Origin: Escherichia coli
GTDB lineage: Bacteria > Pseudomonadota > Gammaproteobacteria > Enterobacterales > Enterobacteriaceae
DNA length: 64,000 bases
NCBI RefSeq assembly: GCF_003018255.1
Contig: NZ_CP027440.1
Reading direction: 5' to 3' (one strand)
Position numbers: made by a program. This document shows positions 21,801 to 24,800 of the stretch, piece after piece (the first letter of the stretch is position 1; every line of letters begins with the position of its first letter).

Positions 21801-24800
21801 TTAGAGAGGATATCGGGTGCGCGATTGGGAATATAACCCAGTTCATCAAGAGCGGCGGCAATCTTGCCGCGTAGAGCGACGGAAACCTGCTCCGGGTTGC
21901 GTAAAAAACGGCTGACCGTCATTTTGGTCACGCCTACACGGTCAGCCACATCCTGAAGTACGGGTCTTTTCTTTTTCATCGTCCTGAAGGTACAAAAGAG
22001 ATAGATTCTCTTAGTTTAACACGGACGCATCAGAACCTTCCCGGGGAAAACAGTGCTTGTTTACAATTATTAGATATACACTAAATCAATTGCATCGCAT
22101 TGTGCTAACGACACGGCAAAACCCCGGAAGCGTACATCAGCACGCGACCGGAGCGAGCGAGGAAGCCTGCAAAAAGGCAGGCTTCAAAAATGCCGTTGAG
22201 CTTTAAACCGGCGGCAGATCGAACAGTAACACTTCGCTGTCGCTATCCGCATGGATGGAGATTGCCTGCTCATCCCAGATTGCCAGACCATCGCTGGTCG
22301 AGGCTTTCACGCCGTTAATGGTGACATTGCCTTTCACCACCTGGATCCAGACGCGGCGTTCAGCGGCAATCTGATGTACCGACTGCTCATCTTTCAGCAG
22401 CGCCCAACGATACAGTTCCATATCCTGATGCACTTTCAATGAACCATCTCGCGCATCCGGCGAGAGCACCAGCTGTTTGCCCTGTACGGCATCGAAGCGA
22501 CGCTGTTCATAACGCGGTGTAATGCCGTTTTCTTCAGGCATGATCCAGATCTGATACAGATGCAGACGCTCGGTGCTGCTTGGGTTGTACTCTGAGTGAC
22601 GAATACCCGTACCCGCACTCATAATCTGGAACTCGCCCGCCGGAACCTGCTCTTTATTGCCCATGCTGTCCTGATGCTCAACAGTACCTTCCAGCACGTA
22701 GGTCAAAATTTCCATATCTTTATGCGGGTGAGTGCCGAAGCCCTGCCCTGCTTCAATCACGTCGTCGTTAATCACGCGCAGCGCGGAGAAGCCCATAAAG
22801 TTCGGGTCGTAGTAGTTGGCAAAAGAGAAAGTATGCCAGGAGTCCAGCCAGCCATGATTTGCATGACCACGTTCATTTGCTTTGCGTAAGTAGATCATTT
22901 GTATTCGCCCCCTGAATGTTTTCGATGGGCTTAGTGTGGACCCGATCTGCCTGGGATGATAGAGGGTGAAAATTGACCCCTCTGTTCAAAAAAATTGAAC
23001 TATTAGAGGGGCCATCAAACTTACTTCGCGAGAGTCACTGTGGAGGGAGAAGCTTGCTCAAATCCGCGTTCAAGGATTTCCAGATTGGTAAGAACTTCAG
23101 ATTCCTTGACGTAATTTGGCGCACCGTTGGTGATGGTTTGATACAACGCATCATAAACGCGCCCGTAATCGCCCATCTCCGGCTTTATCTCTTCTCTGAC
23201 CGTCACGCCCTCGTCATTGACATACTCCAGCACACCGACCGAATCATCCGCCGCGAATCCCGGTTCGCCCGGCATAATATTAGCCTTGAGGCTGGTTTCC
23301 TGCTGGTCGATACCGTATTTAATAAACGAACCTTTCTTACCGTGAACGATAAATTTCGGATAATCGATTTTCACCAGATGGCTGGTTTTGACGATGGCTT
23401 TCAGGTCGCCATAAAACAGCTGCGCTTCAAAGGTGTCGTCAGGATTGGCTTTATTGCGCAGGCTGCGGATGTCATAAGCGACGTGATCCGGGCGACCGAA
23501 CAGAGAAATAATCTGGTCCATCGTATGCACACCAAGGCCATAGAACGCGCCATCCTGCGGCAGCCCAGGTTTGGTTTCTGTCACCGGGCGGTAATAGTCA
23601 AAATGGCTTTCCACTTCGACAATCTCTCCAAGCTTGCCGCTTTCAATCGCTTTTTTCGCTGTCAGGAAGCAGGAATCAAAGCGACGATTCTGATATGGCG
23701 TGACGGTCAGCCCTTTACTTTTCGCCAGAGCAAACAGCTCTTTCGCCTGCGCAAGCGTCGGAGTGAACGGTTTTTCGACCAGCACATTTTTCCCGGCTTC
23801 CAGCGCGCGCTTCGCGTACTCGAAGTGGCTGTCCGCATGGGTGCAGACAACAACCAGCTTAACATCGGGATCGTTTAGCACTTCGTCGAGATCGCTGGTG
23901 AAATGGATATGGGAATAAATGGGAGCCTGTTCTTCCGGCTTCGCATGGCGACGAAAAATATGCGCGACATGCCAGCTATCCTTGCGGTTAAGTACATACG
24001 GCAGATGGTAACGGGTGGTGCTTTTGCCGAAGCCAATAAAGGCGCAGTTGATGACCATGATTTCGTCCTTTTTAAGGTGATTATTTACACCTTAGCGCAA
24101 AGCGGACGTGGTTCCTACTGGAGTGCGCATAACGAACACAAGCACTTCCCGTGGATAAATTGAAAACGAAAGATCAAAAAAAAAGCCAGCACCCGGCTGG
24201 CTAAGTAATACTGGAAGCAATGTGAGCAATGTCGTGCTTTCAGGTTCTCCGCGAGGGTCTTCCTGATCGCGAGACAATAATAATCATTCTCATTCGCACT
24301 TGTCCAACACTTTTTGCAAAAAAATGCATTTGACTCGCATTTGAAAGTCAATGATGTTGAAAGGGACATTTACCCCAAAGAGGACAAAGGAATGAGTGAG
24401 ATAGTGATACGCCACGCAGAAACACGGGATTACGAGGCCATCAGGCAGATTCACGCCCAGCCGGAGGTGTATTGCAACACACTACAACTACCTCATCCTT
24501 CAGAAGGCTGGTGGCCAGAAAGATTGAAAGATCGCCAGGGGTTTAAACAACTGGTTGCCAGCATTGATGGCATCGTGGTGGGTCATCTTTTCATTGAGGC
24601 TTATCAAGGCCCACGCCGTAGTCATGTTGCAACTTTTGGTATCTGTGTTGACTCCCGCTGGCACAACCGCGGCGTCGCCAGCGCCCTGATCCGCGAATTG
24701 ATTGAAATGTGCGACAACTGGTTACGGATAGATCGTATTGAGTTGACGGTGTTTGCAGATAACGCCCCGGCAATCGCAGTCTATAAAAAATTCGGCTTTC

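What the first reader, a model, noticed from the sequence alone, without database searches (positions are those of the whole stretch)
24181..24310. RyhB sRNA with Fur box present in the yhhX-yhhY spacer
A 90-nt minus-strand sequence matches RyhB including its terminator, and an upstream Fur-box-like motif is present. The provided ORF track calls two spurious minus-strand ORFs across it (24092..24277 and 24115..24369). This is a known element, listed because protein-only annotation would miss it.
Basis: partly seen in the sequence, partly recalled or inferred. Interest (0 to 1): 0.3.

Follow-up and report, generated by a model that had tools for sequence, protein, structure and literature searches.

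The report
Ordinary E. coli RyhB iron-stress sRNA gene
This is the well-known E. coli ryhB gene, a small iron-starvation regulatory RNA with its Fur-repressed promoter, base-for-base identical to the laboratory strain K-12, so it is real but ordinary.

Summary
The observation and the interpretation are both correct. Window 24176/24181..24270 (minus strand) is the ryhB small RNA gene. It scores 83.1 bits against Rfam RF00057 (gathering score 55, E = 3.6e-14). The stretch 24165..24405 has no difference from E. coli K-12 MG1655, where this position is annotated as ncRNA ryhB (b4451) between yhhX and yhhY.

Directly upstream are a sigma-70 promoter (-35 TGGACA, -10 TATTAT) and the only Fur-box match in the 64-kb window. 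That match is 16 of 19 bases at 24273..24291 and overlaps the -10 hexamer. The gene ends in a GC-rich hairpin followed by nine T.

- Neither matches any Pfam family.
- Both start codons lie upstream of the RNA's 5' end.
- A 1-nt indel relative to K-12 shifts the frame of both.
- None of the PGAP-annotated records inspected has a feature there.

The 134-bp element is at least 99% identical in 5413 of 5424 complete E. coli genomes that hold it.

One correction: the functional 3' end probably includes the full U tract (to about 24176), not 24181.

Novelty: already known. Interest is low.

The parts
24176..24270 (-). The ryhB small RNA gene. It is 95 nt as annotated in K-12; the classical 90-nt form is 24181..24270. 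The transcription start is the G at 24270.
   Evidence: Identical to the K-12 ncRNA ryhB b4451. Rfam RF00057 scores 83.1 bits, E = 3.6e-14, over 24241..24177.
24206..24241 (-). Conserved single-stranded and hairpin-loop core (GAAAGCACGACAUUGCUCACAUUGCUUCCAGUAUUA) that base-pairs with target mRNAs.
   Evidence: Rfam consensus positions 1-36 match without a mismatch at posterior probability near 1. PMC4666370 used RyhB C28-U68 as the target-pairing region. The pairing function itself rests on the literature and was not tested here.
24176..24202 (-). Rho-independent terminator. The hairpin AGCCAGC-CGGGT-GCTGGCT spans 24202..24184, and the nine-T run spans 24184..24176. The same module binds Hfq.
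   Evidence: Terminator scan: 7 pairs, 5 of them G-C, loop of 5. The MFE and centroid folds both contain this hairpin. PMC4509938 gives a polyU tail of 9 for RyhB and describes the hairpin plus long polyU tail as the Hfq-binding module.
24277..24306 (-). Sigma-70 promoter of ryhB. The -35 hexamer TGGACA is at 24306..24301, the spacer is 18 bp, and the -10 hexamer TATTAT is at 24282..24277. Six bases separate the -10 from the start at 24270.
   Evidence: This is the only promoter-like site found in 23900..24600, with 10 of 12 consensus matches. It is identical to K-12.
24273..24291 (.). Fur box (operator), matching 16 of 19 consensus bases. It overlaps the -10 hexamer and ends 3 nt upstream of the start.
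   Evidence: Single match in the 64 kb, with 0.01 expected. Chen et al. 2007 (PMC2189734) report a 25.2-bit Fur site cluster at -15 of ryhB, confirmed by gel shift. The sequence here is identical to K-12.
24092..24277 (-). Mechanical ORF of 61 aa with a TTG start. It is not a gene.
   Evidence: Listed. No Pfam match. The start codon lies inside the -10 hexamer, upstream of the start at 24270. In K-12 a 1-nt deletion opposite window position 24146 changes the frame and cuts it to 53 aa.
24115..24369 (-). Mechanical ORF of 84 aa with an ATG start. It is not a gene.
   Evidence: Listed. No Pfam match. It starts about 100 nt upstream of the ryhB start and runs through the promoter, the sRNA and the terminator. 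In K-12 it is frame-shifted to a different, 95-aa C-terminus. The PGAP records inspected have no feature here.
24059..24175 (-). Spacer between the ryhB terminator and the yhhX start codon. This is the path of any read-through transcript into yhhX.
   Evidence: It has three differences from K-12, at 24080, 24146 and 24164. The scan found no promoter-like site on the minus strand here. The literature suggests ryhB-yhhX co-transcription.
23021..24058 (-). yhhX, a GFO/IDH/MocA-family oxidoreductase. It is the downstream flank, on the same strand as ryhB.
   Evidence: Pfam PF01408 and PF02894. Annotated.
24392..24880 (+). yhhY, a GNAT N-acetyltransferase. It is the divergent upstream flank.
   Evidence: Pfam PF00583. 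Annotated.

Best explanation
The region is the E. coli ryhB gene, and its cis elements are all intact.

**Shown here.**
- The RNA sequence is identical to K-12 RyhB.
- A sigma-70 promoter sits upstream, and a Fur operator overlaps its -10 hexamer.
- The gene ends in an intrinsic terminator with a nine-U tail.

**Inferred from established work on the identical K-12 sequence.**
- When iron is sufficient, Fe2+-Fur binds the operator and blocks transcription.
- When iron is scarce, Fur leaves the operator and RyhB is made.
- Hfq binds and stabilises RyhB through the terminator hairpin and the 3' U tail.
- The central single-stranded core pairs with the ribosome-binding regions of mRNAs for dispensable iron-using proteins, such as sodB, sdhCDAB and acnB, about 50 target genes in all.
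- Pairing blocks translation and triggers RNase E-dependent decay of both RNAs. This is the 'iron-sparing' response. A few targets, shiA and cirA, are activated instead.

The two ORFs drawn across the region are artefacts of mechanical ORF calling.
For: - **Family match.** Rfam RF00057 scores 83.1 bits against a gathering score of 55, E = 3.6e-14, over the full model.
- **Identity to K-12.** Window 24165..24405 has no difference from K-12. It is the longest difference-free run in a 3.5-kb alignment that otherwise differs at 4.2% of positions, and the probability of any given stretch of that length being difference-free at that rate is about 4e-5. The 95-nt annotated K-12 ncRNA equals window 24270..24176.
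- **Cis elements.** Promoter and terminator were found by scan. The Fur box is unique in the window, with 0.01 expected by chance.
- **Synteny.** The gene sits between yhhX and yhhY.
- **Species-wide conservation.** The 134-bp element is at least 99% identical in 5413 of 5424 complete E. coli genomes.
- **Literature on the identical sequence.**
  - A Fur site cluster at -15 of ryhB was confirmed by gel shift (PMC2189734).
  - Fur repression, Hfq dependence and degradation of sodB and sdhCDAB mRNAs are reviewed in PMC3788343.
  - The iron-sparing function, about 50 targets and the RNase E mechanism are described in PMC4666370.
  - The terminator hairpin plus nine-U tail as the Hfq module is described in PMC4509938.
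Against: Nothing contradicts this reading.

- **Thermodynamic folding does not flag the RNA.** The MFE is -24.1 kcal/mol with a z-score of -0.59 against shuffles. This is typical for a short sRNA with a single-stranded seed.
- **No expression data for this strain.** Neither expression nor Fur binding in this particular strain was measured. Both rest on sequence identity to K-12.
Confidence: 0.98

Rival explanations
1. One or both minus-strand ORFs (24092..24277, 61 aa; 24115..24369, 84 aa) encode real small proteins, and the region is protein-coding or dual-function.
For: Both ORFs are open in the window.
Against: - Neither matches a Pfam family even at E = 0.1.
- Both start codons lie upstream of the ryhB start at 24270. 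One is inside the -10 hexamer and the other is about 100 nt upstream. No other minus-strand promoter was found.
- Both would have to be translated through an intrinsic terminator.
- The 1-nt indel at 24146 relative to K-12 changes the C-terminal frame of both, giving 53 and 95 aa in K-12. The reading frames are therefore not conserved, although the DNA upstream of the indel is invariant.
- No CDS is annotated there in K-12 or in the PGAP records inspected.
Confidence: 0.01
2. The Fur box and promoter mainly serve the downstream gene yhhX, and ryhB acts as a leader of a ryhB-yhhX operon rather than as an independent sRNA gene.
For: - The Fur site was first attributed to yhhX by Vassinova and Kozyrev, as recounted in PMC2189734.
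- About 20% of polymerases read through the ryhB terminator on plasmids (PMC4509938), and those authors suggest co-transcription with yhhX.
- The yhhX transcript rises under iron depletion. That rise is lost when ryhB and its promoter are deleted (PMC8896160).
- No other promoter-like site was found between the terminator and yhhX.
Against: - This adds to the sRNA function and does not replace it. About 80% of transcripts terminate, and more do so under stress.
- The RNA matches the RyhB covariance model, and its trans-acting function is firmly established.
- The simple promoter scan is insensitive, so a yhhX promoter of its own is not excluded.
Confidence: 0.3
3. The locus is a decayed or non-functional ryhB copy, a pseudogene or paralogue such as Salmonella's second RyhB.
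For: None found.
Against: - There are no differences from K-12 across the RNA, promoter and Fur box.
- The window holds a single copy.
- It sits at the canonical yhhX-yhhY position.
Confidence: 0.005

Closest known systems
E. coli K-12 ryhB (b4451; Rfam RF00057 RyhB)
   Same: The RNA sequence, transcription start, promoter hexamers, Fur box, terminator and U tract are identical. The genomic neighbours, yhhX and yhhY, are the same.
   Different: Nothing differs inside the element. The nearest differences from K-12 are downstream of the terminator, at 24164 (SNP), 24146 (1-nt insertion) and 24080 (SNP), and inside yhhY from 24406 onward.
sgrS-setA type sRNA-mRNA co-transcription
   Same: An Hfq-dependent sRNA gene with a leaky intrinsic terminator lies directly upstream of a same-strand protein gene. 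The literature suggests ryhB-yhhX read-through.
   Different: Co-transcription of ryhB and yhhX has not been shown directly and could not be tested here.

Membership tests
RyhB sRNA (Rfam RF00057) | Covariance-model score at or above the family's gathering threshold of 55 bits | tested here: met
   83.1 bits, E = 3.6e-14, model positions 1-67 of 67, at 24241..24177(-).
RyhB sRNA (Rfam RF00057) | Conserved core sequence (GCACGACAUUGCUCACAUUGCUUCCAGU) used for target pairing | tested here: met
   The core aligns to the Rfam consensus without a mismatch and is identical to K-12.
RyhB sRNA (Rfam RF00057) | Fur operator overlapping the promoter, giving iron-responsive repression | tested here: met
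   At sequence level the feature is met: a 16-of-19 consensus match at 24273..24291 overlaps the -10 hexamer, is unique in the window and has 0.01 expected by chance. The identical K-12 site was gel-shift confirmed (PMC2189734). Binding in this strain was not measured.
RyhB sRNA (Rfam RF00057) | Rho-independent terminator with a long 3' U tail, which forms the Hfq-binding module | tested here: met
   A 7-bp GC-rich hairpin at 24202..24184 is followed by a nine-T run ending at 24176. This matches the description in PMC4509938.
RyhB sRNA (Rfam RF00057) | Enterobacterial synteny: located between yhhX and yhhY | tested here: met
   yhhX is at 23021..24058(-) and yhhY at 24392..24880(+), by Pfam and by RefSeq annotation of colinear genomes.
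RyhB sRNA (Rfam RF00057) | Induced by iron starvation or fur deletion, with Hfq-dependent repression of sodB, sdhCDAB and other targets | not testable with these tools
   This needs expression experiments. It is inferred from identity to the K-12 gene, for which it is established.

The most novel reading that the evidence does not exclude
The ryhB promoter and Fur box may also act as the iron-responsive promoter of the oxidoreductase gene yhhX, through partial read-through of the ryhB terminator. That would make ryhB-yhhX an sRNA-mRNA operon like sgrS-setA. In this strain the read-through spacer differs from K-12 by a 1-nt insertion and two SNPs. The idea has been suggested in the literature but not demonstrated.
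Probability: 0.4. Interest if true: 0.2.

Novelty: already known. Interest (0 to 1): 0.05.

Why it matters
[quoted passage not shown] The copy here is identical to the reference, so nothing new about biology follows from it.

The practical lesson is that protein-only pipelines put two false ORFs across an invariant, functionally important sRNA gene. The RefSeq PGAP records inspected leave the locus blank.

The element's near-perfect conservation across about 5400 E. coli genomes sits next to a yhhY allele that differs by about 22% from the majority. The contrast illustrates strong purifying selection on the sRNA and its operator.

Tried and rejected
- **Thermodynamic folding.** Folding the 94-nt RNA gave a z-score of -0.59 against shuffles, so stability alone does not distinguish it. 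I did not use it as evidence beyond noting the terminator hairpin.
- **Permissive Rfam scan.** A scan of the whole window at E up to 1 added only sub-threshold hits: a naRNA4/REP-like hit at 41517..41554 and two snoRNA models. I treat these as chance or REP sequence.
- **Primary RyhB papers.** I tried to read PMC123697 and PMC1251601, but neither is held. Mechanism statements therefore cite held secondary sources.
- **Protein-coding reading of the two ORFs.** Rejected.
- **Pseudogene or paralogue reading.** Rejected.
- **Repeat search of the ugpB-livF spacer.** It found nothing.

Full report
**Observation**

Read on the minus strand, the window shows the following order:
- the start of yhhY on the opposite strand (ATG at 24392);
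- a 121-bp promoter region;
- the sequence GCGATCAGGAAGACCCTCGCGGAGAACCTGAAAGCACGACATTGCTCACATTGCTTCCAGTATTACTTAGCCAGCCGGGTGCTGGCTTTTTTTTT, starting at 24270;
- a 117-bp spacer;
- the ATG of a 345-aa ORF at 24058.

**Is it RyhB?**

A gathering-threshold Rfam scan of the whole 64-kb window returned one hit. It was RF00057 RyhB at 24241..24177(-), 83.1 bits against a gathering score of 55, E = 3.6e-14, covering the full model with a nearly mismatch-free conserved core. A permissive rerun added nothing credible.

The K-12 MG1655 record annotates ncRNA ryhB (b4451) at 3580922..3581016(-), between yhhX and yhhY. Aligning the whole yhhX-yhhY spacer to K-12 gave three differences in 333 columns, all downstream of the terminator. 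The 95-nt K-12 ncRNA equals window 24270..24176 exactly.

**More than chance, and under constraint**

In a 3.5-kb alignment to K-12 the window differs at 4.2% of positions. By feature the divergence is:

| Feature | Divergence from K-12 |
|---|---|
| yhhW | 1.4% |
| yhhX | 2.4% |
| yhhY | 17% |

The longest difference-free run is 241 bp, at 24165..24405. It covers the terminator, the RNA, the promoter and Fur box, and the yhhY start. At the local rate, the probability of any given stretch of that length having no difference is about 4e-5.

Across RefSeq complete E. coli genomes, the 134-bp element is present in 5424 of 5426 and is at least 99% identical in 5413.

**Cis elements**

- **Promoter.** The consensus scan found one promoter-like site in 23900..24600. 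The -35 hexamer TGGACA is at 24306..24301, the spacer is 18 bp, and the -10 hexamer TATTAT is at 24282..24277. It matches 10 of 12 consensus positions and sits 6 nt upstream of the G at 24270.
- **Terminator.** The scan found the hairpin AGCCAGCCGGGTGCTGGCT at 24202..24184, followed by a T run. Counting the T that closes the stem, the run is nine T long and ends at 24176.
- **Fur box.** The 19-bp Fur consensus matches once in the window with up to 3 mismatches, at 24273..24291. It overlaps the -10 hexamer and reaches to -3. Shuffles give 0.01 expected matches.
- **Experimental support for the Fur site.** Chen et al. 2007 found a 25.2-bit Fur site cluster at -15 of ryhB in the identical K-12 sequence and confirmed binding by gel shift. 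They noted that it had first been assigned to yhhX (PMC2189734).

**The two ORFs**

Both ORFs exist mechanically. Four points argue against them being genes:
- Neither matches a Pfam family at E up to 0.1, whereas both flanking genes do: GFO/IDH/MocA for YhhX and GNAT for YhhY.
- The TTG start at 24277 lies inside the -10 hexamer, and the ATG at 24369 lies about 100 nt upstream of the transcription start. Neither start codon is therefore on the RyhB transcript, and both frames run through the terminator.
- A 1-nt indel at 24146 relative to K-12 changes both frames, giving 53 and 95 aa in K-12 with different C-termini.
- K-12 and the PGAP records inspected annotate no CDS there.

**Mechanism**

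The sequence features are shown here. The biochemistry is inferred from work on the identical K-12 gene.

Fe2+-Fur occupies the operator over the -10 hexamer and represses ryhB. On iron depletion RyhB is made. Hfq binds and stabilises it through the terminator hairpin and 3' U tail (PMC4509938).

RyhB then pairs with mRNAs for non-essential iron proteins, such as sodB and sdhCDAB, about 50 targets in all. Pairing blocks translation and triggers RNase E-dependent decay. This is the iron-sparing response. shiA and cirA are activated instead (PMC4666370; PMC3788343).

The predicted fold has a 5' hairpin, a central hairpin that presents the conserved core, and the terminator. Its energy is not distinguishable from shuffled sequences, with a z-score of -0.59.

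PMC4509938 describes a derivative of the sRNA SgrS with its polyU tail cut to four U as expected to lose Hfq binding, and gives RyhB's tail as nine U. K-12 annotates 95 nt. The functional 3' end is therefore more likely near 24176 than at 24181.

**Secondary point: read-through into yhhX**

- About 20% of polymerases read through the ryhB terminator on plasmids.
- The authors of that study suggest co-transcription with yhhX but state that it is unproven.
- The yhhX transcript rises under iron depletion, and the rise is lost when ryhB and its promoter are deleted (PMC8896160).
- No separate yhhX promoter was picked up by the crude scan.

This is the only part of the locus that remains open, and it has already been raised in the literature.

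**Verdict**

The element is real, correctly identified and already known. Its value is as an annotation catch. Interest is 0.05.

**Context**

The window is E. coli chromosome. It is largely colinear with strain DETEC-S792 (NZ_CP116067.1), running from a fimbrial operon and glgP through asd, gnt, yhhW-X, ryhB, yhhY-Z, ggt, ugp, liv, rpoH, ftsYEX, zntA and nik to rhsC.

Noticed in passing
window 24487..24845 (inside yhhY, 24392..24880 +): The yhhY allele is highly divergent and starts abruptly about 95 nt into the gene. It has 84 nucleotide differences from K-12 in 489 nt, mostly at third codon positions, with 84% amino-acid identity. The first 95 nt and the adjacent ryhB region are essentially identical to K-12. 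Only about 159 of 5423 E. coli genomes carry this allele at 95% identity or more, and 4835 are at 60-80%. It looks like an imported recombination block or a dimorphic gene. The source of the allele was not traced.
   Followed up: partly
window ~35069..35738 (between ugpB and livF): The window has about 500 bp more here than strain DETEC-S792. In the few genomes that share it, the stretch is annotated as a Phd/YefM antitoxin plus a Doc (death-on-curing) toxin, a type II toxin-antitoxin pair. Only 106 of 5426 genomes cover at least 80% of this 1-kb stretch. No flanking repeats were found.
   Followed up: partly
window 25117..26786: yhhZ (392 aa) is annotated by PGAP as an Hcp1-family type VI secretion effector (tssD). 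It overlaps the start of yrhA (164 aa), and a truncated hypothetical CDS lies at 26882..26995. This looks like an orphan Hcp-toxin and immunity-like pair. It was not examined further.
   Followed up: no
window 1..6896: A chaperone-usher fimbrial operon lies immediately beyond glgP. It contains an usher, two chaperones and several fimbrial subunits. Whether it varies between strains was not checked.
   Followed up: no
E. coli genome collection (not the window): A few complete genomes carry up to 3 copies of the ryhB element: 5429 places in 5424 genomes. One genome, NZ_CP195448.1, has a version at 93.7% identity whose match spans 143 bp of the record against the 134-bp query. Neither was examined.
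   Followed up: no
window 41517..41554 (+), inside livJ by colinear annotation: A sub-threshold Rfam hit to naRNA4 (40.4 bits against a gathering score of 59.5). The overlapping stretch 41446..41552 also matches, at 86% and in inverted orientation, the ugpB-livF spacer of strain S792. I read this as a REP-type repeat rather than an sRNA.
   Followed up: partly
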